Origin: Candidatus Daviesbacteria bacterium
GTDB taxonomy: Bacteria; Patescibacteriota; Microgenomatia; Daviesbacterales; UBA10151
NCBI GenBank assembly: GCA_016184225.1
Contig: JACPDA010000005.1
Coordinates: 67,590-131,589, forward strand
DNA length: 64,000 nucleotides
Direction: 5' to 3'
The position numbers and the translations under genes are program-made. Numbering within the stretch: the stretch's first letter is position 1; the number at the start of each line of letters is the position of its first letter. The notes below the pieces were generated by a model, which saw only the letters and a list, made by a program, of their open reading frames with translations, was not told the DNA's origin and made no database searches. Positions 38,978-63,294 of the stretch are shown piece by piece.

Positions 38978-40378
38978 ATGAAACTTAAGAATTTCATTTT
39001 TCTTATTGCAACATTCATATCATTTTTGATAGGGGCCCAGGTATCTCCGGCAGTTTTTGGTGCAACGCCCACACAGTATGGCTTTACATTTCCAGTTGGC
39101 GAGCTGAATAACTGTGCAACTGTGGCAGAATGCGGAAATTACTGTGAGAAAGACGGTAATCTTCCGGCGTGCATGGCATTTGTGAAAAAGTACAAAATTA
39201 CCAAAGATGATGTATTAACATTCACTATTGATGAACTGGGTAATTGTCAGATGGGTTCTGATTGCCGCAATTTTTGCAACCGTGACGAAAATATTACCAA
39301 ATGCATTGATTTTGCCGATAAATATGACCTGCTTTCTACCAGCAATCTTGAACTGGCGCAGAAATTTGCCAAAGCAGTTGGTTCCGGAGGTGGGCCGGGG
39401 GGCTGCAGGAGCCTTGAGCAGTGTGACCGCTATTGTGACATAAGTGAACATACCAACGAATGTCTTGACTATGTGGGCAAGAAGGATTTATTACCACGTA
39501 ATGAATTGGCACAAGTTCGCAAAGTGGCAGAGGGTTTTAGACAGGGAATAGAAACCCCGGGTAAGTGTCGTGATTACACGGAGTGCAATGTTTATTGTAC
39601 TGATTCTAGCCACTCTAACGAGTGCGGAGTTTATGCTGTAAAGGTTGGTTTTATCACAACCGAGGAGGCAGAACAGGCCAAAAAATATGGCGGAACCGGT
39701 CCTGGAGGTTGTAAATCAGAGCAAGAATGTAGCGCTTTTTGTCAACAGCCATATAATCAGAGAGTCTGCTTAAGTTATGCAAACGAACATAATATAAAAG
39801 TAGATTTTAAAGGACCCGGCGGTTGTAGTGATATTTCATCCTGCACATCTTACTGTACTAAAAGTAAGTCTGATCCAGAGTGTCAAAAGTACGCTAGTCA
39901 ATACCAAGGATTTAAAGGGCCTGGCGGGTGTGAGGATGAAGCCTCCTGCAAAACTTATTGTCAGGCTAATCCTGCTGATGCGGAATGTAAACAATATGCC
40001 GGTCAATATGGCGGATTTTCCGGACCTGGAGGGTGTAGTGATGTAGGATCTTGTACTGCCTATTGTAAAGATCACTATCAAGATCAAGAATGTCAAAAAT
40101 ACTCAAGCCAGTATGGTGGAGGATTTTCCGGGCCTGGCGGGTGTAATTCAGAAAGCTCATGTAAAGCTTACTGCACTGCCAACTCTGGGGATGCAGCCTG
40201 TAAACAATATGCCGGTCAATATGGCGGATTTTCCGGACCTGGTGGGTGTACGGATGAGGCTTCTTGTACCTCTTACTGTAAGTCAAACCCCAAAGATTCA
40301 GCTTGTGCCCCATATGTTGGCCAGTATAAAGATCAATACCAACAGCAAAATCAGCAACAACAACCTCAACCACAATAG
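38978..40378 (+). CDS. Secreted cysteine-rich tandem-module protein (about 10 modules of GPGGC-x5-C-x3-C-x8-C…QYGGF, Q-rich tail)
   Basis: Signal peptide; about 30-aa modules with 4 Cys each repeated head-to-tail, ending QQQNQQQQPQPQ. Confidence 0.6.
   Translation: MKLKNFIFLIATFISFLIGAQVSPAVFGATPTQYGFTFPVGELNNCATVAECGNYCEKDGNLPACMAFVKKYKITKDDVLTFTIDELGNCQMGSDCRNFCNRDENITKCIDFADKYDLLSTSNLELAQKFAKAVGSGGGPGGCRSLEQCDRYCDISEHTNECLDYVGKKDLLPRNELAQVRKVAEGFRQGIETPGKCRDYTECNVYCTDSSHSNECGVYAVKVGFITTEEAEQAKKYGGTGPGGCKSEQECSAFCQQPYNQRVCLSYANEHNIKVDFKGPGGCSDISSCTSYCTKSKSDPECQKYASQYQGFKGPGGCEDEASCKTYCQANPADAECKQYAGQYGGFSGPGGCSDVGSCTAYCKDHYQDQECQKYSSQYGGGFSGPGGCNSESSCKAYCTANSGDAACKQYAGQYGGFSGPGGCTDEASCTSYCKSNPKDSACAPYVGQYKDQYQQQNQQQQPQPQ
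39380..40335 (+). repeat. Tandem roughly 90-bp coding repeats inside the Cys-rich protein gene
   Basis: Recurrent ggacctggnggntg…caatatggcggattttccgg blocks seen directly. Confidence 0.6.
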
Positions 40379-44014: not shown

Positions 44015-44017
44015 TAC

Positions 44018-44097
44018 TATAGAATAGTGACTAGTCGCTAGAGTCTAGAGTCAAGTAATTATTTTCTAGACTCTAGATTCTAGACACTTGACTCTAA
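44018..44097. repeat. Intergenic repeat family 4 (ATAGTGACTAG…GAGTCAAG…TCTAGACTCTAGA…ACTCTA), copy A after rpsR
   Basis: About 80 bp, partly palindromic and rich in tctaga/gagtc. Confidence 0.6.
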
Positions 44098-44099
44098 CT

Positions 44100-44768
44100 A
44101 TGCCCAAACTGCCCGGACTTTTTGACAGCTTTGATAACCTGGATCAAATTTCACCGGAGGATATAGCTCTAGGTTTAAAACCCATACCCCAAGCTAACCT
44201 CTTAGAAAATTACCTGGGAAATAGGATTTTATACCCGGGGACTCTTCCTTTAACCGAGCAGGATATGAAAATAGACTTAAGTATTCTGCGGGAGGCCTTA
44301 AAACAAACCAATCCAAAACCTCCACACCAGAAGCTGAATGCTTTACTTGGGGATAACCCTTTTCTCAATACGACACTTAGGAAAGTACTTATACCTGTAA
44401 GATTCCTTGATTTCGTTCCGGATCTTAAGAGTTTAGTGCTTACTTTCATTGATGCGCTGCTTTTGGGACGCGAAAGACAAGACTTTTTTGAGGATTTATG
44501 GACCATTGTTTTAACCGATGATATTGATGAGGTAGCCGGTTCACTGCTTCTGCCGCAATTTGATGGTAGCAGCGGAGTAATGAATCTAAGGTTACAGGGA
44601 GAGAGATACGAGATTAATCAGGGAAGCTTCAAGATTATATCTTGTCCGAAAGAGCGGTGCGAGATAGCGTATAAGCTTCAAAAAGGCCGGATGCTGGGAA
44701 AACAAGAGAGTGCAGTTGAAATTTATGGAGGAAAGCTAGGGTTGGTGGTTGACGGGAGATCAGTATGA
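44100..44768 (+). CDS. Hypothetical protein (about 222 aa)
   Basis: ORF translationally coupled to the next gene. Confidence 0.4.
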   Translation: MPKLPGLFDSFDNLDQISPEDIALGLKPIPQANLLENYLGNRILYPGTLPLTEQDMKIDLSILREALKQTNPKPPHQKLNALLGDNPFLNTTLRKVLIPVRFLDFVPDLKSLVLTFIDALLLGRERQDFFEDLWTIVLTDDIDEVAGSLLLPQFDGSSGVMNLRLQGERYEINQGSFKIISCPKERCEIAYKLQKGRMLGKQESAVEIYGGKLGLVVDGRSV

Positions 44769-48300: not shown

Positions 48301-48552
48301 ATGGTAACTAAAGAAAATGGGGAAAAATTGGAAAGGGTTATTTCTTTAAAGGAGACATTAGGGGCAGAATTAAATAGAATTAAAAGGGAGAAGGAAATGG
48401 GCGTACCATTGGAAGATTCCTTTGAAAGCTTACTGAGAGTAGTTGAAGTATTAGTTGGGCAGATCAAAGACGAAAATCCATTTGGTCAAATATCGAAGGT
48501 AGACCCACTGAAGCCGCGGGTTGGTGGGTTCATACCGCCGGAACATCATTGA
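48301..48552 (+). CDS. Hypothetical small protein (83 aa)
   Basis: ORF only; its end overlaps prmC on the opposite strand. Confidence 0.25.
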   Translation: MVTKENGEKLERVISLKETLGAELNRIKREKEMGVPLEDSFESLLRVVEVLVGQIKDENPFGQISKVDPLKPRVGGFIPPEHH

Positions 48553-49279
48553 TAATAAGTACCCTTTGTTTTTTGGCAAGGTCGGTTTTGACCTCTACTT
48601 TTGCTTGGGGAAAATATTTTTGGGCTTCATTTGCTGCCAGTTCTCCGTGGGTATAGTCAATTTCTCCGATAATCAATTTAGGTTTCCAACCTACACTCCA
48701 GGAGTGTAAGTTCGAATTCACTCCTGGAGTGGAAAGCTGTTTGATCTGTTGGAAAAGTTTCCGGTAAAGTTCAAAGCCATCTTCTCCGCCGTCCAAGGCA
48801 ACATGTGGTTCAAAGTCTTTGACTGAAGAGTCTAAATAAGGAATCCTGGCAGAAGGGATGTAAGGTAAGTTAGTGACAATGACTAGGTTACAGGTTTCAG
48901 GGTACAGGTTACAGTTTAACCCGGAAAGCAAATTACTTTTTAAAAAAGTGATTTTATCTTCAACTCCATGGAGTTTGGCATTTTGTCTGGCTACTTTTAA
49001 AGCTTTCTGGGAAATATCTGAAGCAATAATAGTTACGTTTACACCCTTGGGGTGGAGGCTTAGGTTTTTGGCAATGGAAATGGCAATGTTGCCGGAGCCG
49101 GTGCCAAGGTCTAAAATGAGGTTACAGGTTTCAGGGTACAGGTTACAATAATTTAAAACTTCATCTACTAAAAGTTCTGTTTCCGGGCGGGGGATTAGAA
49201 CATCAGGAGTGACTTTGAAACGTAATTTGTAAAATTCAACCCAACCTTTAATGTACCCAGAGGGCTTTGATGATGTCAT
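48530..49279 (-). CDS. prmC: Release-factor glutamine N5-methyltransferase
   Basis: SAM motif (LDLGTGSG) and an NPPY-type motif (TNLPY). Carries two in-frame copies of a 29-bp repeat ([10 protein letters not shown]). Confidence 0.8.
48886..48914. repeat. Repeat family 3 (GGTTACAGGTTTCAGGGTACAGGTTACAG), in-frame in prmC
   Basis: Translated on the minus strand as [10 protein letters not shown]. Confidence 0.7.
49120..49147. repeat. Family 3 second copy, in-frame in prmC
   Basis: ggttacaggtttcagggtacaggttaca, translated [10 protein letters not shown]. Confidence 0.7.
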
Positions 49280-50198
49280 CCATATCTCCTTCTAAGATCC
49301 TATCCAGATTATGCCAGGATTTACCAATCCGGTGGTCAGTCACCCTGTTTTGGGGGAAGTTATAAGTTCTGATTTTTTCACTTCGCTCACCGCTTCCCAC
49401 TTGGGCAGACCTTTGAGCCTCAATATTTCCCACCTTTTTCTGTTGCTCCATTTCCCAAAGTTTAGCCCGCAAAAGCGATAGGGCGTTTTCCCTGTTTTGC
49501 AGTTGGGATCTTTCAGTTTGGGCTGTGACTACAGTTCCTGTTGGGATATGCTTAAGCCTGACGGCAGTGGAGACTTTATTAACATTCTGGCCTCCGGCAC
49601 CGCCGGAGCGGAAAGCTTCAAATTCTATATCAGATGGGTTAACAATAACTTGAGTTTTATTAACTTCCGGAAGCACTGCTACTGTTGCAGTTGAAGTATG
49701 GATTCTCCCCGAAGATTCTGTAACAGGTACTCTTTGTACCCGGTGTACACCGGACTCAAACTTTAGGCTGTTGTATGAATCTTTGCCGGAGATTTTGAGT
49801 ACAAGTTCTTTAATTTGTCCAAGGTTGCCCTCTGACCTGTTTAACTCCTCAACTTTCCACTTGCGGTTTTGAGCAAATCTGGTATACATCCTGCTTAAAT
49901 CCCCGGCAAACAGCCCGGCCTCATCTCCGCCGGCAGCGCTCCTTATTTCCAAAATACAGCTATCAGCATTCAGTATCGCTTCGCTGTCAGCTGTCAGACT
50001 TTCTGAATTCTCTGACGACTGACGACCGGTACCAACCGAAGGTTGGTGGACTGACGACTCTAGTTCACTTTTTTGTTTCTCAAGTTCAACAATTTCCTCC
50101 CTGGCCAATTCAGCCATGTCAGGATCCTCGGTTAAAGACTTAAGGTCTTGAATTTTTTTGTTTATTTGATCAATTTGGTCTTTTAGGTAATCGTTCAT
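49248..50198 (-). CDS. prfA: Peptide chain release factor 1
   Basis: PVT tripeptide motif and GGQ. It has an extra N-terminal segment ([12 protein letters not shown]) encoded by a palindrome flanked by direct repeats. Confidence 0.85.
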
Positions 50199-51625: not shown

Positions 51626-51631
51626 ATTGAG

Positions 51632-52045
51632 TTAAGAGTTACGAGTTAAGAGTGCAGAATTATTTCTGGATTTCTTCAGAATCGTAACCAGTATTCTTAT
51701 TATTTCATCATTTTCCTTTAAAAGTAAACCTAACTTCTTAGAGGGAATTAGTTGTGATCGGGAAAGAATCGTTAACCAATAATAGGTTTCCCTTGCTTCT
51801 TTTAAGGAGATGTTGACTAAGTGTATAAAATCTTTTCTGGAGGCAGCACTTTGAGCTTCTTGTAAGTTTGCTCCAATAGATGTTCCGGACCTTACTACTT
51901 GTGATGCTAAAGCATAACCAGCAGGAGTTTTCGGTAAGGAGTTAACCATGTAAACAATTCTTACTGCAAATTCTATGGATCTTTCTGCGATTCCAATTCT
52001 TAACTCTTCACTCTGCACTCTGAATTCTCCTGATGGCTTCGTCAA
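51632..52045 (-). CDS. Four-helix-bundle protein (23S rRNA intervening-sequence protein family)
   Basis: Family-typical sequence (…SIGANLQEAQSAASRKDFIHLVNISLKEARETYYWL…). The N-terminal region overlaps the hisS 3' end by about 37 nt. Confidence 0.65.
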   Translation of the reverse strand: MTKPSGEFRVQSEELRIGIAERSIEFAVRIVYMVNSLPKTPAGYALASQVVRSGTSIGANLQEAQSAASRKDFIHLVNISLKEARETYYWLTILSRSQLIPSKKLGLLLKENDEIIRILVTILKKSRNNSALLTRNS

Positions 52046-55443: not shown

Positions 55444-56169
55444 TTATTTTTTCTTTCCAGTGGGAGTGGCAGACTGGGTGGCTACCTTTTTGGGTTTTAT
55501 TATTCCGCCTTGAGGTATCACATAAACAAATCCAGCTTCGAAAATTTCATTCTTATTTTTGCTTCCCGTGAGTATCACAAAATCTTTTAACTTTACCGTC
55601 GCTGAGGTGGGCAAACTGACGGCTACATTTTGGAAGTTTTTATCCTTGAGGGTAATTAGCTCGTCAGAGATAGAGATTACCTGGCCCCAAAAGTAAGTTT
55701 TTGGTTCTAAGTTAGGAGTTGGCAGTAAGATAATTTTTTTAGCTGTCAGTACGCCTGTTTCGTCAATATCGCCCAAAGCCGCAATATAGTCATCTTCCGC
55801 AATTGCCTTCAGAGAGAATTTAGTTTTTCCTTTAATTTTGCTTTCAAAAACAGTATCCTGATTGATGCTGATTATTTTGGGTCCGGATGCGGCTGCTAAA
55901 GTTAGGGAAGTTTCCGAACTTGCTTTAACCATGCCTGTGTAAGCTTTATCTTTCAGTTTGTGGTTAACCTCTTGTTTTAATTTAGCGGCCTTTGAAGCAA
56001 TTTCCTTTTTTAGTTCCTCCAGTTTGGCCTTAATGTCGGCAGAAGGGGTGGAATCAGCAGCATAGGTAGGGTATAGGGTATAGGGTATAGGGTATAGGAA
56101 AACAAAAAATACAAAAAATAAGGCAATTATTTTACTAGTGGCTAACCCCCAAACCCTAAACCCTCTCAT
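55444..56169 (-). CDS. Hypothetical secreted/anchored protein (241 aa)
   Basis: N-terminal hydrophobic segment. The N-terminal codons include a heptanucleotide tandem repeat (YPIPYTLYPTY). Confidence 0.4.
   Translation of the reverse strand: MRGFRVWGLATSKIIALFFVFFVFLYPIPYTLYPTYAADSTPSADIKAKLEELKKEIASKAAKLKQEVNHKLKDKAYTGMVKASSETSLTLAAASGPKIISINQDTVFESKIKGKTKFSLKAIAEDDYIAALGDIDETGVLTAKKIILLPTPNLEPKTYFWGQVISISDELITLKDKNFQNVAVSLPTSATVKLKDFVILTGSKNKNEIFEAGFVYVIPQGGIIKPKKVATQSATPTGKKK
56063..56098. repeat. Heptanucleotide tandem repeat (GGGTATA x about 4.5) inside the N-terminal coding region of ORF 55444..56169
   Basis: taggtagggtatagggtatagggtatagggtatagg. Confidence 0.8.
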
Positions 56170-56618
56170 AGTTTTTCCTTCGAATAATACACTGTCCGCT
56201 CCGCTGACCTGGAATCTCCTGTTGAATCAAAGGTTGCAGCAGTGATCTTATTTACCCCTTCGTCTAAACTTAAAACAGTGGAAAAGGAGCCATCAGGTTT
56301 TGATTTAATGACCGAATCAAAATTTTCTGTGGAGATTAAAACCAAACTCCCCGGCCCGGTTTTGCCGGAAACCAATACTTCCGGCGAATAAAATAAACTA
56401 TCCTGCTCAGGCTGGTCAAGATCCAGCCGCAGAGTCTTAGGGGCAGTGGTAATCGGCCCGGCCAAAAAGGGGCCTTTGGGTTTTTGATACTGGATATTTA
56501 AAATGTAATAAAGTCCTGCAAGAAATATTAAACCAAAACTTAAAAGTAAAATCTGGGAAATGAAAAACTGTTTGGTGGAGAGTTTTTTGGTTAATTTCAT
56601 TTGACAGCATTTTAACAT
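56166..56618 (-). CDS. Hypothetical membrane-anchored protein (150 aa)
   Basis: TM segment; 4-nt overlap with the downstream gene. Confidence 0.35.
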   Translation of the reverse strand: MLKCCQMKLTKKLSTKQFFISQILLLSFGLIFLAGLYYILNIQYQKPKGPFLAGPITTAPKTLRLDLDQPEQDSLFYSPEVLVSGKTGPGSLVLISTENFDSVIKSKPDGSFSTVLSLDEGVNKITAATFDSTGDSRSAERTVYYSKEKL

Positions 56619-56676: not shown

Positions 56677-57333
56677 ATGGATATATATTGGTACGGACAA
56701 GCATGTTTTAAATTAAAAGGCAAAAATGCGACTGTCGTCATCGATCCATTTGACCCTGATTTTACCGGTCTTAAACTTCCCAAGGATTTGCAATCTGATG
56801 CAGTTTTAACAACCCATGGCCACCGCGACCACAACTTTGTATCGGGTACCACTACATCCTCAGGTGCTAAACCCCCGGTTTTTGATAAACCAGGGGAATA
56901 TGAAGTTTCCGGGGTAGTCATGACCGGGATAAATTCTTTCCATGACAACTCCCAGGGTACAGAGCGGGGGACGAACACTATTTTCCATTTACTTTTTGAT
57001 AATTTGGATATTATTCATTTGGGGGATTTAGGACAAAGCAAATTAACTGAAGAGCAGGTTGCCCAAATTGGCCAGACGGATATTCTGCTGGTTCCTGTAG
57101 GGTCTATCTATACAATAGACTCTAAGGCTGCCTCGGAAATAGTTTCACAGCTTGAACCGAAAATTATCATCCCGATGCATTACAGGATAGATGGGTTAAA
57201 GTTTGAACTTGAAGGGGTTGAGAGCTTCTTAAAAGAAATGGGAGCAGAAGGGGTGGTTCCGGTGCCAAAGCTGTCAATTACTAAGGAAAAACTGCCGGAG
57301 GAACTGCAGGTAGTGGTATTAGGTAAGAGTTAG
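56677..57333 (+). CDS. Metallo-beta-lactamase-fold hydrolase
   Basis: HxHxDH motif (THGHRDH). Confidence 0.7.
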   Translation: MDIYWYGQACFKLKGKNATVVIDPFDPDFTGLKLPKDLQSDAVLTTHGHRDHNFVSGTTTSSGAKPPVFDKPGEYEVSGVVMTGINSFHDNSQGTERGTNTIFHLLFDNLDIIHLGDLGQSKLTEEQVAQIGQTDILLVPVGSIYTIDSKAASEIVSQLEPKIIIPMHYRIDGLKFELEGVESFLKEMGAEGVVPVPKLSITKEKLPEELQVVVLGKS

Positions 57334-57376
57334 TTTTCGGTTTTCTGTTTTCGGTTTTCAGATTCTGGTTTTTCAG
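57334..57376. repeat. Heptanucleotide tandem repeats (GTTTTCN x about 6) that form the left arm of a long imperfect inverted repeat upstream of dnaB
   Basis: ttttcggttttctgttttcggttttcagattctggtttttcag; right arm ccgaaaactggcaaac…ccgaaaactgacc. Confidence 0.7.
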
Positions 57377-57452
57377 TTGTCTGTTGACCGGTTAACCGAA
57401 AACTGGCAAACTAATATCCGAAAACTGACCACTGAGAACTGATAACCGAACT

Positions 57453-58811
57453 ATGGCGCAGCTAACGACTAAGCTTCCCCCACAAAATATAGATGCTGAA
57501 CAATCCCTTTTGGGCGCGCTCCTCATTGACAAAGATGCAATTGTGCGGATTTCGGAAATCCTGCACCCTTCAAACTTTTATAGATCCGAACAACATGGAG
57601 CTATCTTTGAAGCGATACAAAGCTTATTTGAAAGGCGTGAACCGATAGATTTGGTCACTGTTACGGAAGAGCTTAAAAGAAAAAGCGTTTACGACAAAAT
57701 TGGAGGGTCGGCATATTTAACTTCCCTGATAAATGTTGTTCCTACATCTGCTCATATTGAACATTATGCCAAAATAATTAGAGACCATGCTGTCAGGAGA
57801 AACTTAATTACACAAGCTACTTCTTTGATACAGCAGGCCTATAATGAAGGCGAGTCGGTGGAGGAGCTTTTGGAGACGGCCGAGGCGGGTATATTTGCCC
57901 TGTCGCAAGAACATGTCAGCCGGGATTTTTTGCCGATTAAAGATGCGTTAACAGAGTCTTTTGACAGACTTGATGAGCTGCAAAAATCTTCCGGAAAACT
58001 GCGGGGTATACCAACCGGTTTCCGGGATCTTGATGCCAAGTTGGCCGGCATGCAAAACTCCAACCTGTTAATTCTAGCTTCCCGTCCGGGGCAGGGTAAA
58101 ACTTCCATGGCTTTAAACATTGCCCAATATGTGGCAGTTACGGCAGGACTCCCGGTGGGAATTTTTTCTTTGGAAATGAGCCAGGAAGAGTTGGTAGATA
58201 GGTTGTTGGTGGGACAAGCAGACATAGACGCTTGGAAGCTAAAAACAGGCAGGTTAGATGAGAAGGACTTTGATAAGTTGTCTTTGGCCATGGGAGAGTT
58301 GGCAGAGGCGCCGATATTTATTGATGATACCCCGGGAATCACAATTTCCGAGATGAGGACAAAGGCGCGAAGATTGCAGATTGAGCATGGTTTAAAGTTT
58401 TTAATTGTAGATTATCTGCAGCTTATAAAGGGGCGGAATTTGGAAAATAGGGTCCAGGAAGTTTCAGAAATTTCCCAGAATTTAAAGAATTTGGCCAGAG
58501 AGCTGAAAATTCCGGTTTTAGCTATCTCACAGCTTTCCCGGGCAGTAGAGCAGCGGGGGACAAAAAAGCCGCAGCTGGCCGACCTTCGGGAGTCGGGGGC
58601 GATTGAACAGGATGCCGATGTGGTGATGTTTATCTGGCGGGAAGATAGTGAACATCCGGAACAGGTCACATTAGATATTCAAAAACACCGCAACGGTCCA
58701 ACCGGAGAAATAAACATGATCTTTAGGGCTGATCGGACTAAGTTTTATGGCATGGAAAAAACCAGAGGCAGACCAAAAGAAGAAACTAAAGAATTAGCCT
58801 CCGCTGCATAG
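57453..58811 (+). CDS. dnaB: Replicative DNA helicase
   Basis: DnaB N-domain, Walker A (SRPGQGKTS) and a RecA-like C-domain. Confidence 0.9.
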   Translation: MAQLTTKLPPQNIDAEQSLLGALLIDKDAIVRISEILHPSNFYRSEQHGAIFEAIQSLFERREPIDLVTVTEELKRKSVYDKIGGSAYLTSLINVVPTSAHIEHYAKIIRDHAVRRNLITQATSLIQQAYNEGESVEELLETAEAGIFALSQEHVSRDFLPIKDALTESFDRLDELQKSSGKLRGIPTGFRDLDAKLAGMQNSNLLILASRPGQGKTSMALNIAQYVAVTAGLPVGIFSLEMSQEELVDRLLVGQADIDAWKLKTGRLDEKDFDKLSLAMGELAEAPIFIDDTPGITISEMRTKARRLQIEHGLKFLIVDYLQLIKGRNLENRVQEVSEISQNLKNLARELKIPVLAISQLSRAVEQRGTKKPQLADLRESGAIEQDADVVMFIWREDSEHPEQVTLDIQKHRNGPTGEINMIFRADRTKFYGMEKTRGRPKEETKELASAA

Positions 58812-59590: not shown

Positions 59591-62263
59591 ATGAATAAAT
59601 CTACAAAAAATGAAGTCAGGCTTCCGGTGCATGTTAAGCCTGAGCGGTACAGGATTATGCTCCGGCCGGATCTGGAGGGGTTTACATTTTACGGCGAAGA
59701 AACAATTTTTTTGGTTTTAGAAAAGCCCACCAAACAAATTACCCTGCATGCTGCTGAGCTGGAGATAGAATCGGCAGAATTTATACATGGTAACAAAGAG
59801 GTATGGGCTGGGAGGATTAATTATGATAAAAAAGCGGAAACTGCTACATTTACTTTTGCTAAAAATATTCAAAAAGGCAAAGGACAATTAAAGCTTGCTT
59901 TTAAGGGAATCTTGAATGATAAAATGCGGGGCTTTTACCGTTCCCGCTATGAAGTGAGTGGAGTATCAAAGCATCTGGCTACTACCCAGTTTGAATCAAC
60001 TGATGCCAGGAGGGCTTTTCCCAGCTTTGATGAACCCGCTCAAAAGGCTGTTTTCGATGTGACTTTAGTGGTTCCTGCCAAGACTGTGGCTATCTCCAAC
60101 ACCATTGAATCTAACATCCGAGAACATGAAAGCGGTTACAAGGTAATAGAGTTTGCCCCAACCCCGAAAATGTCTACTTATCTTTTAGCCTTTATTGTGG
60201 GGGAGTTTGAGAGTGTAGAAGTGCAAAGTGCAAAGGGCAAAGTGATAAGGGTTTTTACCACACCGGGTAAAAAAGAACAAGCCAGATTTGCCCTTGATGT
60301 AGCCGGAAAATGCTTGGATTTCTATGAACAATACTTTGGTATCTCTTACCCTTTGCCGGTGTTGGATCTTATTGCAATACCTGATTTTGCTGCCGGGGCC
60401 ATGGAAAACTGGGGAGCAGTGACATATCGCGAATCTTTGCTGTTAATTGATGAGGAGGCTTCCTCCACTGCCAATAAACAATGGGTGGCTTTAGTGATTG
60501 CCCATGAGCTGGCTCACCAGTGGTTTGGCAATTTAGTCACTATGGAGTGGTGGACCCACCTTTGGTTAAATGAAGGTTTTGCCTCATTTATTGAATTCTT
60601 GGCTATTGACCATATTTTCCCGGAGTGGGATATCTGGACCCAATTTGTAGGGAGCGAAATGGGTGAAGCTTTCTCGCTGGACGGCTTAAAAAACACCCAC
60701 CCGATTGAGGTGGAGGTGGGCCATCCGGCCGAGATTTCCGAGATTTTTGATAAGGTCAGCTATTCCAAAGGAGCCTCAATTCTGCGTATGCTTATGTCTT
60801 ATCTGGGGGAAAAAGATTTTCAAAAAGGGTTGCAATTTTATCTTAAAAAACATGCTTATGGAAATGCGGAGACCCAGGATTTGTGGAAAGCATTGGAAGA
60901 AGTTTCCGGGAAACCTGTTGGCAAGCTGATGAAAAACTGGACCTCAAAGCCCGGACATCCGGTGATAAGGTTACAGTCAACAGGCAGCAGGCTACAGTTA
61001 ACACAAAGCAGGTTTTTCTCCTCTCCAATTTCTAAAAGAAAGACGAAAGATGGTGCTGTCTGGAGTATTCCTATCACTGTCATTCTGGGGAGTTCTGCAA
61101 GGCAGAACGACTCCAGAATCGATTCTGGACAAGCCAGAATGACTAATCTATTAATGAATAAAAAATCCATGACTATTTCAGGAATTAAAGATAACGAGTG
61201 GATTAAATTAAATGCCGGGGAGGCGTCATTAGTTAGAGTTGATTATCCGCAGGAATATCTCAAGAAGCTGGAAGAGGCGGTTAAGAATGGAAAACTGCCT
61301 GCAGTGGACAGGTTGGGCCTAATCAGAGATTCTTTCTCTTTGGCAGAGTCAGGTCAAAGCCCAACCACTTTATCTTTGGAGCTGACTCAAAGTTACATGG
61401 GTGAAGAAGATTATACTGTTTGGGCTGAGCTGACGGGAAAACTGCTGCAGCTTGATTCTCTTTTAGCTCTGGAACCATTTTATCCGGATTTCAAAAAATA
61501 CGGCATAAAGATTTATCAAGATATAGGGGGTAAGCTAGGCTGGAAAGCAAGAAAAGGAGAAAAGCATACAGATTCCCTGCTGCGGGGTATGGTTTTAAAT
61601 ATGCTGGGAGGGTTTGGAGATGGGGAGACTATAAAGGTGGCTCAGGAATTATTTAGAGCTTATGTAGTACGTCATTCTGGGGAGCGCAGCGACTCCAGAA
61701 TCAAAGGGGGGGATTCTGGACAAGCCAGAATGACAAGTAGTCACGGCATTCATCCTGATTTAAAGGGAGTTGTTTACAATTTGGTGGCGGAAAACGGTGG
61801 AAAAAAAGAATTCGATACTTTGATGAAGATGTACAAGCAAGAGGAAAATCAACAGGAAAAAGATCGGATTGGCCGGGCTTTGGGGAAGTTTAAAATTAAA
61901 GCCCTTCTTTCTAAAACCCTGGATTTTTCTATTTCCAAGCATGTGAGATTCCAAAACAGTCTGCAAATTATTGCAGCTGTTTGGGCTAATCCGGTCGGCC
62001 GTTATCTGGCCTGGGAGTTTGTAAAAAAGAATTGGAAATTGTTAAAAGATAGGTATGCAGGGGGCCATTATTTTACCAAAGTTTTTGGACCGGCCGGAAG
62101 CTTTACCAAAAAAGTTGATGCCAAAGATATTGAATCCTTTGTCAAGAAAAATCCTGTCCCGGAAGCCAAAAGAACCATTGCCCAAGCCTTGGAACAGATT
62201 TATTCCAATGCAGAGTGGCTAAAAAGGGATAGACAGAAAATCAAAGATTTTCTGTTAAGATAA
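59591..62263 (+). CDS. pepN: Aminopeptidase N (M1 family)
   Basis: GAMEN and HELAHQW…E zinc motifs. Carries two in-frame palindromic repeat inserts (SSARQNDSRIDSGQARMT; RHSGERSDSRIKGGDSGQARMTS). Confidence 0.9.
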   Translation: MNKSTKNEVRLPVHVKPERYRIMLRPDLEGFTFYGEETIFLVLEKPTKQITLHAAELEIESAEFIHGNKEVWAGRINYDKKAETATFTFAKNIQKGKGQLKLAFKGILNDKMRGFYRSRYEVSGVSKHLATTQFESTDARRAFPSFDEPAQKAVFDVTLVVPAKTVAISNTIESNIREHESGYKVIEFAPTPKMSTYLLAFIVGEFESVEVQSAKGKVIRVFTTPGKKEQARFALDVAGKCLDFYEQYFGISYPLPVLDLIAIPDFAAGAMENWGAVTYRESLLLIDEEASSTANKQWVALVIAHELAHQWFGNLVTMEWWTHLWLNEGFASFIEFLAIDHIFPEWDIWTQFVGSEMGEAFSLDGLKNTHPIEVEVGHPAEISEIFDKVSYSKGASILRMLMSYLGEKDFQKGLQFYLKKHAYGNAETQDLWKALEEVSGKPVGKLMKNWTSKPGHPVIRLQSTGSRLQLTQSRFFSSPISKRKTKDGAVWSIPITVILGSSARQNDSRIDSGQARMTNLLMNKKSMTISGIKDNEWIKLNAGEASLVRVDYPQEYLKKLEEAVKNGKLPAVDRLGLIRDSFSLAESGQSPTTLSLELTQSYMGEEDYTVWAELTGKLLQLDSLLALEPFYPDFKKYGIKIYQDIGGKLGWKARKGEKHTDSLLRGMVLNMLGGFGDGETIKVAQELFRAYVVRHSGERSDSRIKGGDSGQARMTSSHGIHPDLKGVVYNLVAENGGKKEFDTLMKMYKQEENQQEKDRIGRALGKFKIKALLSKTLDFSISKHVRFQNSLQIIAAVWANPVGRYLAWEFVKKNWKLLKDRYAGGHYFTKVFGPAGSFTKKVDAKDIESFVKKNPVPEAKRTIAQALEQIYSNAEWLKRDRQKIKDFLLR
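61079..61143. repeat. Family 2 copy, in-frame in pepN (variant left arm)
   Basis: gtcattctggggagttctgcaaggcagaacgactccagaatcgattctggacaagccagaatgac. Confidence 0.75.
61671..61734. repeat. Family 2 copy, in-frame in pepN (near-perfect palindrome)
   Basis: gtcattctggggagcgcagcgactccagaatcaaagggggggattctggacaagccagaatgac. Confidence 0.8.
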
Positions 62264-62581: not shown

Positions 62582-63154
62582 ATGTTGAATGTAACTGACC
62601 TTAGAAATGGCACTTTTTATAAAGAGGGGAAAGATATTCTTTTGGTTTTAACTTATGAGCATGTCAAAACCGGCCGGGGTTCCGGCAACATCAAGCTTAA
62701 GACCAGGAATATCAGGACGGGAGCTGTAACGGAAAAATCTTTTATTACCGGAGCCAGGGTTGATGAGGCTAATGTAGAAAAGGAAAAGGCTCAGTTTCTC
62801 TACAGAGATGGAGATTCGCCGGTTGGCGAATTTTATTTCATGGATCCAGTGAGTTTCGAACAGTTTGCAATCCCCGCGCAAGTGATAGGCGATCAGGCAA
62901 AATATTTAAAAGAGGGATTAGAAGTAATTTTGATTGTCTCGGATGGTGAAGCATTAGGACTAGAGCTTCCCATGAGCCTGGTTTATACCATATCTGAAAC
63001 CGGCCCGGGGGAAAAAGGCAATACTGTTTCCAATGTTTTTAAGGAAGCAACCTTGGACAATGGCCTAGTGGTTAAAGTTCCCATGTTCATGAATGTGGGG
63101 GAAAAGGTGAAAGTGGATACTAGGAGTGGGGAATATATAGAGAGAGTTAAATAA
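62582..63154 (+). CDS. efp: Elongation factor P
   Basis: EF-P KOW/OB domains (KTGRGSGNIKLK). Confidence 0.9.
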   Translation: MLNVTDLRNGTFYKEGKDILLVLTYEHVKTGRGSGNIKLKTRNIRTGAVTEKSFITGARVDEANVEKEKAQFLYRDGDSPVGEFYFMDPVSFEQFAIPAQVIGDQAKYLKEGLEVILIVSDGEALGLELPMSLVYTISETGPGEKGNTVSNVFKEATLDNGLVVKVPMFMNVGEKVKVDTRSGEYIERVK

Positions 63155-63243
63155 ATTAACCTAATTACTAATTGACCTAATTTCTAAATAATGTCTAATG
63201 ACTTAATAACCAAATTTTAGACATTAGATCATTGGTGCTTGTT

Positions 63244-63271
63244 TAGAAATTAGAAATTAAAAATTAGAAAT
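63244..63271. repeat. Heptanucleotide tandem repeat (TAGAAAT x 4) in the galU promoter region
   Basis: tagaaattagaaattaaaaattagaaat, followed by an extended -10 TGtTATACT and then the ATG. Confidence 0.7.
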
Positions 63272-63294
63272 TCTGCTCATGTTATACTTACACT

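What the first reader, a model, noticed from the sequence alone, without database searches (positions are those of the whole stretch)
56063..56098. Heptanucleotide microsatellite (GGGTATA x about 4.5) in the N-terminal coding region of a secreted hypothetical protein
The unit array encodes YPIPYTLYPTY, right after the hydrophobic signal/anchor segment of ORF 55444..56169. Frameshifting by unit change would truncate this surface protein, the classic arrangement of a phase-variable surface antigen. Together with the purB, dnaB-upstream and galU-promoter arrays, 7-nt periodic repeats look like a genome feature.
Basis: partly seen in the sequence, partly recalled or inferred. Interest (0 to 1): 0.6.

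Follow-up and report, generated by a model that had tools for sequence, protein, structure and literature searches.

The report
Frameshift-prone heptamer hairpin in signal peptide
A perfect 7-base repeat inside the signal-peptide codons of a conserved exported protein of a Daviesbacteria (CPR) genome is one arm of a hairpin-forming pair of repeat arrays; the pair changes copy number, was found once in nature in an out-of-frame "off" state, and is swapped as a block between otherwise identical strains.

Summary
The repeat is real: 56067..56098 is 32 nt of perfect period 7, (CCTATAC)4.6 on the gene strand. It encodes YPIPYTLYPT between the hydrophobic core and the TYA|A cleavage motif of ORF 55444..56169(-), a conserved Candidatus Daviesbacteria exported protein (coiled coil plus two OB-like barrels).

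Period-7 arrays are a lineage feature: 32 observed against 0.2 expected in 330 kb. Thirteen of the 32 lie in the first ~110 nt of this one gene.

- The array is the 3' arm of an inverted pair. The n-region array GGGTTTA is close to its reverse complement, and the hydrophobic-core codons form the loop.
- Orthologues use different heptads, but the two arms stay complementary within each lineage.
- Copy number differs between relatives (1, 2.4, 3.7, 4.6 and 5.4 units).
- One natural allele (L020) is out of frame with an otherwise intact gene.
- Strains 100% identical over 1.6 kb carry unrelated versions of this ~150-nt module.

Against a classic contingency locus:
- the arrays have only about 4 units;
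- consensus alleles are nearly always in frame;
- similar arrays sit in frame in purB, prmC-like and RF1-like genes.

Verdict: a slippage-prone, frameshift-capable palindromic module. Adaptive phase variation is plausible but unproven.

The parts
56067..56098 (-). 3' arm of the hairpin: perfect heptanucleotide array (CCTATAC)4.6 on the gene strand, TAGGGTA/GGGTATA on the + strand. It encodes L25-T35 (LYPIPYTLYPT), the c-region of the signal peptide. This is the finding itself.
   Evidence: TRF; sequence; translation. The 32 nt are identical in L021/L022, whose proteins are 76% identical to the window's.
56142..56164 (-). 5' arm of the hairpin: imperfect array GGGTTTA GGGTTTG GGGGTTA, starting 6 nt after the ATG and encoding G3-L9 (n-region). 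Its unit matches the reverse complement of the 3'-arm unit at 6 of 7 positions. The imperfections remove the in-frame TAG that a perfect (GGGTTTA)3 would contain.
   Evidence: TRF row 56142..56164, period 7, 3.3 copies, 81%; DNA in register; unit comparison; fold.
56099..56141 (-). Loop of the hairpin: codons of the hydrophobic core (about A10-F24, ATSKIIALFFVFFVF).
   Evidence: MFE and centroid structures; AlphaFold helix at residues 5-25.
56056..56066 (-). Codons of the predicted signal-peptidase site TYA|A. A37 is invariant and AADSTPSAD nearly invariant in 34 homologues. This is also the downstream boundary of the exchangeable module.
   Evidence: Alignment A1; breakpoints. The cleavage itself is inferred; no predictor was available.
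55444..56169 (-). Gene for a 241-aa exported protein (NCBI HYU45_05015, a relative of the DUF5666 family): signal peptide, a disordered segment at the array-encoded residues, a long helix, and two OB-like beta-barrels.
   Evidence: 514 homologues; DUF5666 at 18.2 bits, below the cut-off of 27; pLDDT 77; Mpa coiled coil plus OB domain, S1/CSD folds.
56166..56169 (-). ATGA overlap between the stop of the upstream gene and the start of this gene. Start/stop overlap is seen in most orthologous loci (TAATG or TAGTG in some); translational coupling is inferred from it.
56176..56181 (-). Shine-Dalgarno-like AAGGA 7-11 nt upstream of the ATG (GGAG or AAGGAG in orthologues). It is left unpaired in the predicted folds.
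   Evidence: Sequence; folds. Assignment by inference.
56166..56618 (-). Upstream gene of the pair: 150 aa, N-terminal membrane anchor, Ig-like domain resembling Glucodextran_B. It carries no arrays. Its conserved 3' end (...ERTVYYSKEKL*) is the upstream boundary of the exchangeable module.
57328..57452 (+). Second heptad-periodic hairpin, between the MBL-fold gene and dnaB: (GTTTTCG)3.9 at 57333..57359 paired with CGAAAAC units downstream. It is a lineage-specific insertion.
   Evidence: Fold -46.3 kcal/mol, z -5.6. The spacer is 0-30 nt in most relatives. Weak Rfam hits to generic hairpin families.
63161..63272 (+). Third heptad-periodic hairpin, upstream of galU: (TTAGAAA)4.3 at 63243..63272 paired with CTAATTN units at about 63161..63190.
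   Evidence: Fold -28 kcal/mol, z -4.7; partner test.
44033..44093 (+). Fourth heptad-periodic hairpin: CTAGAGT x2 paired with TCTAGAC x4.6, in intergenic DNA.
   Evidence: Fold -30.9 kcal/mol, z -5.0; partner with 0 mismatches in 14.
21805..21837 (+). Solitary perfect array (AAAGTGC)4.7 directly after the purB ATG. It encodes an N-terminal extension, KVQSAKCKVQS, and has no inverted partner.
48885..49147 (-). Two identical 29-nt composite arrays (AGGTTACAGGTTTCAGGGTACAGGTTACA on the + strand, at about 48885 and 49119), in frame in a PrmC-like methyltransferase gene. Each encodes [10 protein letters not shown].

Best explanation
The (GGGTATA/CCTATAC)4.6 tract is the 3' arm of an imperfect palindrome with heptad-periodic arms. 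That palindrome makes up almost the whole signal-peptide-coding module of a conserved Daviesbacteria exported protein.

Shown:
1. Heptanucleotide arrays are strongly over-represented in this lineage, and this gene's 5' end is their main hot spot.
2. An array just after the ATG and an array just before the cleavage-site codons are reverse complements of one another in each lineage, although the heptad itself differs between lineages.
3. The arrays are kept homogeneous at the DNA level, and copy number differs between relatives.
4. One natural allele has a unit count that puts the signal peptide out of frame with an otherwise intact gene.
5. The whole ~150-nt module is replaced between strains that are otherwise identical.

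Inferred mechanism: replication slippage, for which 7-nt units appear favoured in many bacteria, adds and removes units. Either templated correction between the two arms or selection for pairing keeps them complementary. Homologous recombination through the very conserved flanks moves module types between strains. Because 7 is not a multiple of 3, each single-unit change switches the protein off, giving truncated products of 33-57 aa, and a further change can restore it, as in neuO. With only about 4 units the switching rate is probably modest. Whether the switch is selected (a true contingency locus) or is a tolerated side effect of palindromic heptad repeats colonising an unconstrained signal peptide is not settled.
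For: - **Array and frame:**
- **Period-7 excess:** 2 observed against 0.0 expected in the window; 32 against 0.2 in 330 kb of Daviesbacteria DNA, with little or no excess at other periods (period 6: 4 against 0.2).
- **Hot spot:** 13 of 32 arrays lie in the first ~110 nt of this gene, about 0.6% of the DNA.
- **Different units at the same site in orthologues:** CCTATAC, CTTCACC, TTTACAT, TTTTTAC, CTGTACC, AAATCAT and others.
- **DNA-level conservation:** 11 of 11 array codons are identical between the window and L021, against 99 of 175 (57%) at conserved residues elsewhere in the gene, and 85% nt identity in the rest of the signal peptide.
- **Arm complementarity:** duplex energy within a lineage averages -22.0 kcal/mol against -12.3 between lineages, reached by 0 of 20,000 permutations. 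Unit matches are 5.5 of 7 within families against 3.96 of 7 between, with 3% of between-family pairs reaching 6. The hairpin is the MFE fold in most loci.
- **Copy-number states:** 1 unit in L019, 2.4 in L020, 3.7 in L005, 4.3-4.6 in WIN/L002/L021, 5.4 in L018.
- **OFF allele L020:** 98 nt from the ATG to the AAD codons, a 221-aa mature frame that is intact, no start codon in that frame, and one extra unit restores ...PYTLYPTYAADSTP. All 10 neighbouring genes are intact.
- **Cassette exchange:** L027 and L029 are 100% identical from +92 to +1680 and from -130 to -70, but only 20-63% identical between about -45 and +92. L030/L031 show the same pattern. Signal-peptide identity and mature-protein identity are uncorrelated, r = -0.05.
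- **Precedents:** neuO (PMC3046976); heptamer SSR excess and a four-unit modal array size (PMC4679880 and PMC4692102).
Against: - Only one out-of-frame allele was found among about 30 loci with DNA. Four other suspected cases were simply mis-called start codons.
- Lineages with 62-76% protein identity share the same copy number (4.3-4.6 units). The two Hainich replicate assemblies are identical, and one array-bearing protein is identical in four MAG accessions and on 16 contigs. The consensus state is therefore stably ON.
- 4.6 units is short compared with experimentally phase-variable heptamer tracts.
- Arrays also lie in frame in purB, PrmC-like, RF1-like and aminopeptidase-like genes, where switching would be harmful. 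Array presence alone therefore does not indicate a contingency gene.
- No read-level data could be examined.
- The hairpin's z-score against shuffles is modest for the window sequence (-2.1). Sense and antisense strands fold equally well, so there is no specific sign of selection on the mRNA structure.
Confidence: 0.55

Rival explanations
1. A selected contingency locus in the classic sense. The tract is maintained because stochastic ON/OFF switching of this exported protein is advantageous, for example to evade phage, host or predator recognition, as with neuO or the Haemophilus and Neisseria surface genes.
For: - The tract is in the 5' coding region of an exported protein, and its unit is not a multiple of 3.
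- The hot spot is conserved across lineages despite turnover of the unit.
- The array is kept perfect while its flanks diverge.
- An OFF allele exists with an intact gene body.
- The module is polymorphic within otherwise identical strains, as expected under diversifying or balancing selection.
Against: - The tracts are short (about 4 units).
- ON consensus alleles are almost universal, with the same copy number in divergent lineages.
- The variable part is the cleaved signal peptide, not the mature protein.
- Comparable arrays occur in housekeeping genes.
- No surface or antigen role has been shown for the protein.
Confidence: 0.25
2. A non-adaptive by-product. Daviesbacteria have a mutational bias that generates heptamer arrays and heptad palindromes. 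These persist wherever sequence constraint is weak (intergenic spacers, signal peptides, linkers, N-terminal extensions). Occasional frameshifts are simply deleterious mutations.
For: - The period-7 excess is lineage-wide and the units are diverse.
- Non-target arrays are enriched in intergenic DNA, 35% against 8% expected, p = 8e-4.
- Arrays occur in linkers and N-terminal extensions of housekeeping genes and mid-gene in the L004 linker.
- Palindromic insertions of several kinds occupy the MBL-dnaB spacer in some lineages only.
- The sense-versus-antisense fold symmetry points to a DNA-level process.
- Heptamer excess is known in many bacteria.
Against: - A 40% share of arrays in 0.6% of the DNA is hard to explain by tolerance alone.
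- The adjacent gene's N-terminal membrane anchor has no arrays.
- The array is more conserved than the neighbouring signal-peptide codons.
- The arms co-vary.
Confidence: 0.3
3. An mRNA structural element. The hairpin beginning a few nucleotides after the AUG controls translation initiation, for instance by enforcing coupling to the upstream ORF whose stop overlaps the start, or controls mRNA stability. On this view the heptad repeats are only the material the arms are built from.
For: - The hairpin is conserved across at least 8 unit families, and even in a lineage (L024) that uses a REP-like palindrome instead of arrays.
- The stem base lies at or next to the AUG, and the SD is left free.
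- Start/stop overlap is seen in most orthologous loci (ATGA, or TAATG/TAGTG in some).
Against: - The sense strand has no advantage over the antisense strand, and G-U pairs are few.
- Some orthologues lack a significant hairpin: L009 and L017, and L019 after array contraction.
- z-scores against shuffles are modest for many loci.
- There is no Rfam family at the locus.
Confidence: 0.15
4. A G-quadruplex element. (GGGTATA)4 on the + strand, the template strand of the gene, is a formal G3N4 x4 motif like the GGGAATC repeats of Xanthomonas, and acts through G4 formation.
For: There are four GGG runs with 4-nt loops at 56069..56092. Heptamer G4 repeats with a four-unit mode are described in PMC4692102.
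Against: Orthologous arrays in other lineages (CTTCACC, TTTACAT, TTTTTAC, AAATCAT) have no G or C triplets on either strand, so G4 potential is not the conserved property.
Confidence: 0.03

Closest known systems
neuO poly-psi motif of E. coli K1 (CUS-3 prophage): a heptanucleotide VNTR in the 5' coding region
   Same: A 7-nt unit repeated in tandem just downstream of the start codon. Three units encode one peptide heptad (RLKTQDS there, LYPIPYT here). Only copy numbers in one residue class modulo 3 give full-length protein; all others truncate it. Slippage gains or loses single units (PMC3046976; in-silico test here).
   Different: neuO carries 2-93 copies and its switching has been measured; here there are about 4 copies and no rate data. 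The neuO tract encodes an N-terminal extension of a cytoplasmic enzyme; here it encodes the c-region of a signal peptide. neuO has a single array; here the array is paired with an inverted array to form a hairpin, and the module is exchanged between strains.
Over-represented heptameric long SSRs of bacteria: Mrazek et al. 2007 as cited in PMC4679880 and PMC4692102, GGGAATC repeats of Xanthomonas, GGGGA(C/T)T of Nostoc, and the heptamer repeats reported for the cyanobacterium Calothrix (PMC4692102)
   Same: A genome-wide excess of period-7 tandem arrays, a modal size of about four units, a preference for intergenic DNA close to gene ends, and length and sequence variation between close relatives.
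   Different: Those families have one or a few conserved units per genome. Here nearly every array has its own unit, many arrays are inside ORFs in frame, and four of the window's eleven arrays (including this one) come as inverted pairs.
TAACTGA direct repeats of marine Beggiatoaceae (PMC4679880)
   Same: Short sets of heptamer repeats (2-6 copies) placed directly next to translational starts, with a proposed role in translational regulation.
   Different: A single favoured unit that contains stop codons and is therefore excluded from ORFs. Those repeats are almost all direct, with only one inverted set reported.
Rickettsia palindromic elements (RPE) and other MITE-like palindromes inserted in frame (PMC10969869)
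   Same: Hairpin-forming elements that sit in frame inside protein-coding genes, including housekeeping genes, and add peptide segments. Presence or absence is lineage-specific.
   Different: RPEs are about 150-bp families with conserved sequence and many copies. The heptad hairpins here share architecture but not sequence, and no transposition signature (TSD, transposase) was found or sought. Here the element provides a functional signal peptide.
Quasipalindrome template-switch mutagenesis (established concept; cited from my own knowledge, not from a tool result)
   Same: It would explain how a change in one arm is copied into the other, so that the arms co-vary without selection on RNA structure. 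This fits the strand symmetry seen.
   Different: It is described as a point or patch mutation mechanism in E. coli and phage, not as a process that maintains paired tandem arrays. It was not tested here.

Membership tests
SSR-mediated translational phase-variable (contingency) locus, neuO type | A perfect tandem tract, with a unit length not divisible by 3, inside the 5' part of an ORF | tested here: met
   32 nt of perfect period 7 at codons 25-35 of a 241-codon ORF.
SSR-mediated translational phase-variable (contingency) locus, neuO type | Gain or loss of a unit shifts the frame and truncates the product; changes of three units are in frame | tested here: met
   Simulated -2, -1, +1 and +2 units give products of 33, 50, 40 and 57 aa. 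Changes of -3 and +3 units give 234 and 248 aa.
SSR-mediated translational phase-variable (contingency) locus, neuO type | Natural alleles differ in unit number, including out-of-frame alleles of an otherwise intact gene | tested here: met
   States of 1, 2.4, 3.7, 4.3-4.6 and 5.4 units were found. L020 is out of frame with an intact 221-aa mature ORF. There is only one OFF allele, and the differences are between lineages rather than within one clone.
SSR-mediated translational phase-variable (contingency) locus, neuO type | High-frequency, reversible switching within a clonal population | not testable with these tools
   No reads or cultures were available. Identical consensus sequences in replicate assemblies and on 16 contigs argue against very high rates.
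SSR-mediated translational phase-variable (contingency) locus, neuO type | Tract long enough to be hypermutable | tested here: inconclusive
   4.6 units (32 nt), against 2-93 in neuO. Homogenisation of the units implies slippage over evolutionary time, but no rate can be derived.
Genome-wide heptameric long SSRs (Mrazek LSSR, Xanthomonas/Nostoc type) | Period-7 arrays over-represented relative to other periods and to chance | tested here: met
   32 observed against 0.2 expected; periods 4-12 otherwise show little or no excess (period 6: 4 against 0.2; period 9: 2 against 0).
Genome-wide heptameric long SSRs (Mrazek LSSR, Xanthomonas/Nostoc type) | One or a few conserved unit sequences per genome | tested here: not met
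   The 19 period-7 rows in the window carry about 15 unrelated units.
Palindromic in-frame elements (RPE / MITE-like) | An inverted repeat able to form a hairpin, found inside ORFs in frame | tested here: met
   for this gene. RF1-like internal inverted mini-arrays. L024 carries a REP-like palindrome in frame at the same place.
Palindromic in-frame elements (RPE / MITE-like) | A dispersed multi-copy family with conserved sequence | tested here: not met
   No second copy of this module exists in the 64-kb window. Only the two 29-nt blocks in the PrmC-like gene are identical to each other.
Palindromic in-frame elements (RPE / MITE-like) | Signs of transposition (target-site duplication, cognate transposase) | not tested
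   Not examined. Insertion polymorphism of hairpins in the MBL-dnaB spacer is compatible with mobility but does not prove it.
Sec-type cleavable signal peptide | A positively charged n-region, a hydrophobic h-region of 10-15 residues, and small residues at positions -1 and -3 before the mature protein | tested here: met
   MRGFRVWGLATSK / IIALFFVFFVFL / YPIPYTLYPTYA|AD. A37 is invariant in 34 homologues, and the model has a helix at 5-25. Judged by inspection only, because no signal-peptide predictor was available; the c-region is unusually long at 12 aa.
G-quadruplex-forming heptamer repeats (GGGAATC type) | At least four G3 runs with short loops, conserved as a property of the locus | tested here: not met
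   The motif is present in the window but absent from the orthologous arrays of other lineages.

The most novel reading that the evidence does not exclude
Daviesbacteria carry a previously undescribed kind of genetic element: short palindromes whose arms are tandem heptads. They arise or insert in spacers and in frame in genes. At this locus the element has become an exchangeable signal-peptide cassette that combines (i) a frameshift ON/OFF switch, (ii) a start-proximal hairpin and (iii) discrete allelic types shuffled between strains by short-patch recombination. If so, this would be the first contingency-type locus described in the Candidate Phyla Radiation, controlling a conserved exported OB-fold protein encoded next to dnaB.
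Probability: 0.22. Interest if true: 0.8.

Novelty: new variant of a known kind. Interest (0 to 1): 0.6.

Why it matters
CPR/Patescibacteria are uncultured, reduced-genome episymbionts whose surface biology and gene regulation are almost unknown. My literature searches found no paper linking them with SSR phase variation.

If this module switches in populations, it would show that these minimal cells use stochastic switching for an exported protein, and it would give a simple read-level marker to follow in metagenomes.

Three further observations are general and can be tested across thousands of existing MAGs:
- Both arms of the hairpin are tandem heptads that co-vary.
- Such heptad hairpins occur in spacers, and heptad arrays also sit in frame in housekeeping genes.
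- An entire signal-peptide module is swapped between otherwise identical genomes.

They bear on how palindromic repeats arise, how signal peptides can originate from them (the reverse complement of Lys/Arg codons encodes Phe/Leu/Ser/Pro), and why heptamers are the favoured long SSR in bacteria.

There is also a practical point. Gene callers often mis-place the start of this gene.

Tried and rejected
1. **Abruptly starting homologues.** P0055, P0042, P0037, P0090 and P0062 were suspected of being OFF alleles. Their DNA shows intact frames from the true ATG or GTG, so the gene callers had chosen a later start. L015 and L016, which lacked my anchor motif, are also intact.

2. **Search for the frameshifted product.** A protein search with the predicted 50-aa frameshift product found nothing. 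The index needs three shared 5-residue words, so this test is uninformative rather than negative.

3. **G-quadruplex.** It is a formal motif in this lineage only, and I rejected it as the conserved property.

4. **Selection at the mRNA level, tested by sense-versus-antisense folding.** There is no asymmetry: +2.0 kcal/mol in favour of the antisense strand, not significant. The RNA-function idea is therefore neither supported nor excluded.

5. **Known RNA families.** There are none at the locus. The only hits are sub-threshold matches to miRNA-precursor families at the dnaB-upstream hairpin.

6. **A single mobile repeat family.** Rejected, because the units differ at almost every array.

7. **Enrichment of non-target arrays within -120..+150 nt of start codons.** Not significant: 9 of 20 against 29% expected, p = 0.09. 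Only the intergenic enrichment holds.

8. **Inverted partner as a universal property.** Rejected. It holds for 4 of the 11 window arrays; the purB, aminopeptidase and other arrays are solitary.

Full report
**1. Observation**

The window sequence at 56067..56098 is TAGGGTATAGGGTATAGGGTATAGGGTATAGG. TRF reports period 7, 4.6 copies, 100% matches and score 64.

ORF 55444..56169(-) is 241 aa, and its ATG overlaps the stop codon of ORF 56166..56618(-) as ATGA. On the gene strand the array is (CCTATAC)4.6. It encodes L25-T35 (LYPIPYTLYPT), between the hydrophobic run IIALFFVFFVF and TYA|ADSTPSAD.

Chance is excluded. Perfect period-7 arrays of at least 4 copies number 2 in the window against 0.0 expected from Markov-1 simulations (random sequences with the window's dinucleotide transition frequencies). 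No other period from 5 to 15 behaves this way.

**2. The gene**

The protein is identical to NCBI HYU45_05015 of a Candidatus Daviesbacteria MAG (metagenome-assembled genome) and has 514 homologues at E <= 1e-3, essentially all from Daviesbacteria/Microgenomates. Pfam gives only a sub-threshold DUF5666 hit.

An AlphaFold model (pLDDT 77) has these parts:
- a hydrophobic helix at residues 5-25;
- a disordered stretch at 29-40, which is exactly the array-encoded peptide;
- a long helix at 42-73;
- two beta-barrels.

Foldseek matches the coiled-coil-plus-OB arrangement of Mpa and S1/cold-shock-type barrels.

A37 is invariant and AADSTPSAD nearly invariant in 34 aligned homologues. I read the N-terminus as a cleavable Sec signal peptide. 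This is by inspection only, because no predictor was available. "Surface antigen" is not established.

**3. Heptamers as a lineage feature**

In 329,580 nt of Daviesbacteria DNA (the window plus 17 orthologous loci fetched through the mature-protein motifs) there are 32 period-7 arrays against 0.2 expected. Eight have at least 3.6 copies. Periods 4-12 otherwise show little or no excess; period 6 has 4 arrays against 0.2 expected.

Thirteen of those 32 arrays lie in the first ~110 nt of this one gene, which is about 0.6% of the DNA. The remaining arrays are enriched in intergenic DNA, 35% against 8% expected, p = 8e-4. They are not significantly enriched near start codons (p = 0.09).

An excess of heptameric SSRs, a four-unit modal size and placement near gene ends have been described for other bacteria (PMC4679880, PMC4692102). 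The general phenomenon is therefore known, although I found no report of it for CPR bacteria.

**4. Orthologues carry different heptads at the same site**

Printed in register from the ATG to the conserved DSTP codons, the c-region arrays are:

| Locus | c-region array |
|---|---|
| window | (CCTATAC)4.6 |
| L002 | (CTATACC)4.3 |
| L001 | (CTTCACC)4.3 |
| L005 | (TTTACAT)3.3-3.7 |
| L006 | (TTTTTAC)3.4 |
| L003, L004, L010, L012, L014 | imperfect arrays of other units |
| L007, L008, L011, L013 | a decayed CTGTNNC series |
| L009, L017 | none |

The homologues' peptides show the matching 7-residue periodicities, for example LHPSPFT.LHP, LRTTNYE.LRT and INHKSLF.INH.

The array is conserved at the DNA level. 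Between the window and L021 (proteins 76% identical), all 11 array codons are identical. Elsewhere in the gene, 99 of 175 conserved degenerate codons (57%) are identical, and the rest of the signal peptide is 85% identical at the nucleotide level.

**5. Copy number changes, and one allele is out of frame**

- L019 has the single-unit state (CCTATCCCCTGCC). Its N-terminus is exactly 7 aa shorter, and its n-region is otherwise the same as the window's.
- L018 has (TTTACAT)5.4, where L005 has about 3.7.
L021 and L022, two replicate assemblies from one groundwater well, carry the identical 32-nt array.
- L020, a 33.8-kb contig, carries only 2.4 units. It has 98 nt between the ATG and the AAD codons, so the ATG frame ends after 42 codons. 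The 221-aa mature frame is intact, about 66% identical to the window protein, and contains no ATG, GTG or TTG upstream. Adding one unit regenerates ...LVAIPYTLYPTYAADSTP.
- The other 10 ORFs in that 10-kb locus are intact, so this is not a generally error-ridden assembly.

Simulation on the window gene shows that -2, -1, +1 and +2 units give products of 33, 50, 40 and 57 aa, while changes of 3 units stay in frame. Four homologues that seemed to start abruptly were only mis-called starts. L020 is thus the sole OFF allele among about 30 loci.

**6. The array is one arm of a co-varying inverted repeat**

The n-region also holds an array, GGGTTTA GGGTTTG GGGGTTA at 56142..56164 (TRF row). Its unit matches the reverse complement of the c-region unit (GGGTATA) at 6 of 7 positions.

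The same relation holds in other module families, each with its own heptad. Examples are AAGATTT/ATGATTT, AGGTTAC/GTAACCT, GTAAAAA/TTTTTAC and ATGTAGT/CATACTA.

Quantitatively:
- The duplex energy between the first and second halves of the signal-peptide codons averages -22.0 kcal/mol within a lineage and -12.3 between lineages. None of 20,000 permutations reaches the within-lineage value.
- Consensus heptads match at 5.5 of 7 positions within families against 3.96 of 7 between, and only 3% of between-family pairs reach 6.
- The MFE fold is one long hairpin. Its 5' arm starts a few nucleotides after the AUG, the h-region codons form the loop, and the SD is left free. For the window the energy is -42.8 kcal/mol over 161 nt, z = -2.1.

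Sense and antisense strands fold equally well, and the stems are almost purely Watson-Crick. The complementarity is therefore a symmetric DNA-level property, with no visible tuning for the mRNA.

The imperfections of the 5' arm are explained by coding. A perfect (GGGTTTA)3 would read GGG TTT AGG GTT TAG, whereas the sequence has GTT TGG GGG TTA.

**7. Heptad hairpins elsewhere in the window**

Four of the 11 arrays above my threshold have an inverted partner within 160 nt, and each folds into a long hairpin:

| Region | MFE (kcal/mol) | z |
|---|---|---|
| dnaB-upstream, 57325..57460 | -46.3 | -5.6 |
| 44015..44110 | -30.9 | -5.0 |
| galU-upstream, 63150..63294 | -28 | -4.7 |
| the target, 56040..56200(-) | -42.8 | -2.1 |

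The MBL-dnaB spacer is 0-30 nt in most relatives. It holds the 119-nt heptad hairpin here, other heptad hairpins in L007 and L014, and REP-like palindromes in L001, L003, L009, L010 and L013. A palindrome closely resembling L010's forms the in-frame 5' module of the target gene in L024.

Solitary arrays sit in frame in several housekeeping genes:
- purB: (AAAGTGC)4.7 directly after the ATG;
- a PrmC-like gene: two identical 29-nt blocks, each encoding [10 protein letters not shown];
- an RF1-like gene: two short arrays (at 49983 and 50012) that look inverted by eye, not tested;
- an aminopeptidase-like gene.

The elements thus behave like insertable or locally generated palindromes and arrays. 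They are comparable in their in-frame tolerance to Rickettsia palindromic elements (PMC10969869), but without a conserved sequence.

**8. The module is a cassette**

Within 90%-identity protein clusters, the signal peptides can be unrelated: P0005/P0127, P0026/P0129 and P0056/P0132.

At the DNA level, L027 (a 1.02-Mb contig) and L029 are 100% identical from +92 to +1680 and from -130 to -70. They are only 20-63% identical from about -45 to +92, where they carry different module types. L030 and L031 show the same pattern.

Over 123 proteins, signal-peptide identity and mature-protein identity are uncorrelated (r = -0.05). The same module type sits on mature proteins as little as 58% identical (median 68%). 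Twenty pairs with at least 85% mature identity have signal peptides less than 40% identical.

The boundaries coincide with the two very conserved flanks, ...ERTVYYSKEKL* and AADSTPSAD. I infer short-patch homologous recombination between co-occurring strains. Whether this reflects a hot spot or selection is open.

**9. Interpretation**

Shown:
- The tract is real.
- It is kept homogeneous at the DNA level.
- It changes copy number over evolutionary time.
- It can put the gene out of frame in nature.
- It is half of a co-varying palindrome.
- It belongs to a module exchanged between strains.

Inferred: slippage adds and removes units, and the arms are kept complementary either by templated correction or by selection for pairing. 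The outcome resembles neuO, where heptanucleotide AAGACTC repeats 2 nt after the start codon give full-length protein only at copy numbers divisible by three (PMC3046976).

Against a classic, selected contingency locus:
- The tract is short.
- Lineages only 62-76% identical at the protein level share the same unit number.
- Consensus sequences are identical across replicate assemblies, and one array-bearing protein is identical in four MAG accessions and on 16 contigs.
- Only one OFF allele was found.
- Comparable arrays occur in housekeeping genes.

I therefore commit to [quoted passage not shown] (confidence 0.55). Adaptive phase variation (0.25), a non-adaptive by-product (0.30) and an mRNA regulatory hairpin (0.15) are overlapping readings that these data cannot separate. 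A G-quadruplex role is rejected as a general explanation, because the orthologous units lack G or C runs.

**10. Novelty and score**

Each ingredient has a precedent: neuO, heptamer SSR excess, and in-frame palindromic elements. I did not find their combination described, namely paired inverted heptad arrays that together encode a signal peptide, co-vary across unit families, and are shuffled as a cassette, in a CPR lineage. I classify it as a new variant of a known kind, interest 0.6. The decisive missing datum is read-level length heterogeneity at the tract.

Noticed in passing
window 48885..48918 and 49119..49147 (ORF 48530..49279, - strand): Two identical 29-nt composite heptad blocks (AGGTTAC AGGTTTC AGGGTAC AGGTTAC A) lie 234 nt apart, in frame, in a PrmC/HemK-like methyltransferase gene. 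Each encodes [10 protein letters not shown], and each sits just before a conserved motif (ILDLGTGSG and NLPYIP). The identical pattern of unit variants implies the block was copied as a whole. A closely similar series (AGGTTAC AGGTTTC AGGTTTT AGGTTAC) forms the n-arm of the target gene in L008 and L013.
   Followed up: partly
window 21802..21840 (purH/purB junction): The perfect (AAAGTGC)4.7 array begins right after the purB ATG, which shares one base with the purH stop. Every unit contains GTG, so three consecutive units offer a GTG in all three frames. A unit change might therefore be rescued by initiation at an in-array GTG. The same unit recurs at 60219..60242 inside an aminopeptidase-like ORF, and probably at the orthologous site in L016 (4942..4973) and L003 (4239..4256).
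   Followed up: partly
window 49983..50026 (ORF 49248..50198, - strand, RF1-like): Two short heptad arrays, GCTGTCA x2.1 and CTGACGA x2.1, lie inside the N-terminal domain of a release-factor-1-like gene. By eye they look like an inverted pair, but this was not tested. L014 has a CTGACGA array at 15968..15986 next to a TTCAGCT array at 15931..15949.
   Followed up: no
L024 1397..1530; L010 MBL-dnaB spacer; L001/L003/L009/L013 spacers: A REP-like palindrome (ATTGTCATTCTGAGCGTAGCGAAGAATCTC ... GGAATGACAAT, translated as ...IVILSVAKNLS...) forms the in-frame 5' module of the target gene in one lineage (also P0041, P0094 and P0120). Closely similar or related palindromes occupy the MBL-dnaB spacer in others. 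This looks like a dispersed palindromic element family in Daviesbacteria.
   Followed up: partly
L004 4916..4946: A perfect (ACTACCA)4.4 array lies in the middle of the target gene, in the linker between the two barrels, and encodes LPTTNYQLPT. Heptad arrays can therefore also occupy the inter-domain linker of this protein.
   Followed up: no
window 51629..51653 and 51998..52022: GAGTTAA x3.6 and its reverse-complement-type array (TCTTAAC/TCTTCAC) lie 345 nt apart and bracket ORF 51632..52045(-), which is 137 aa. L007 has GAGTTAT/GAGTTAA ... CACTCTT/GCACTCT arrays in its MBL-dnaB spacer. The ORF was not searched against any database.
   Followed up: no
window 56142..56164: On the gene strand the n-arm reads GGGTTTAGGGTTTGGGGGTTAG. 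From my own knowledge, this resembles the plant-type telomere heptad TTTAGGG; almost certainly a coincidence.
   Followed up: no
L001-L004, L006, L007, L011, L012, L015, L016 (record titles): Many of these Daviesbacteria-like contigs are deposited as 'uncultured Gammaproteobacteria bacterium' (binchicken and SRP co-assemblies). Their gene content and synteny match Daviesbacteria/Microgenomates, so the taxonomic labels look wrong.
   Followed up: no
L018, L023-L026 (genes for P0055, P0042, P0037, P0090, P0062): Automated gene calls start this gene 33-102 nt too far downstream, inside the signal peptide, although an in-frame ATG or GTG overlaps or adjoins the upstream stop. The repeat-rich 5' module seems to mislead start prediction.
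   Followed up: yes
P0092 (protein only): Its N-terminus, MIGFRVWGLGFSLIALVFLYPIPYVREAKASSAYTLYPSYAAD, looks like the LYPIPYTLYP array interrupted by a 9-residue insertion (VREAKASSA).
   Followed up: no
window 39983..40269: TRF reports a 108-nt repeat, 2.7 copies, 64% matches, inside ORF 38978..40378(+). This is a protein-level tandem domain repeat unrelated to the heptamers.
   Followed up: no
P0019 vs P0124 vs P0007 (proteins): P0124 combines the n- and h-regions of P0007 with the c-region and mature part of P0019. This suggests a recombination breakpoint inside or next to the c-arm array itself.
   Followed up: no
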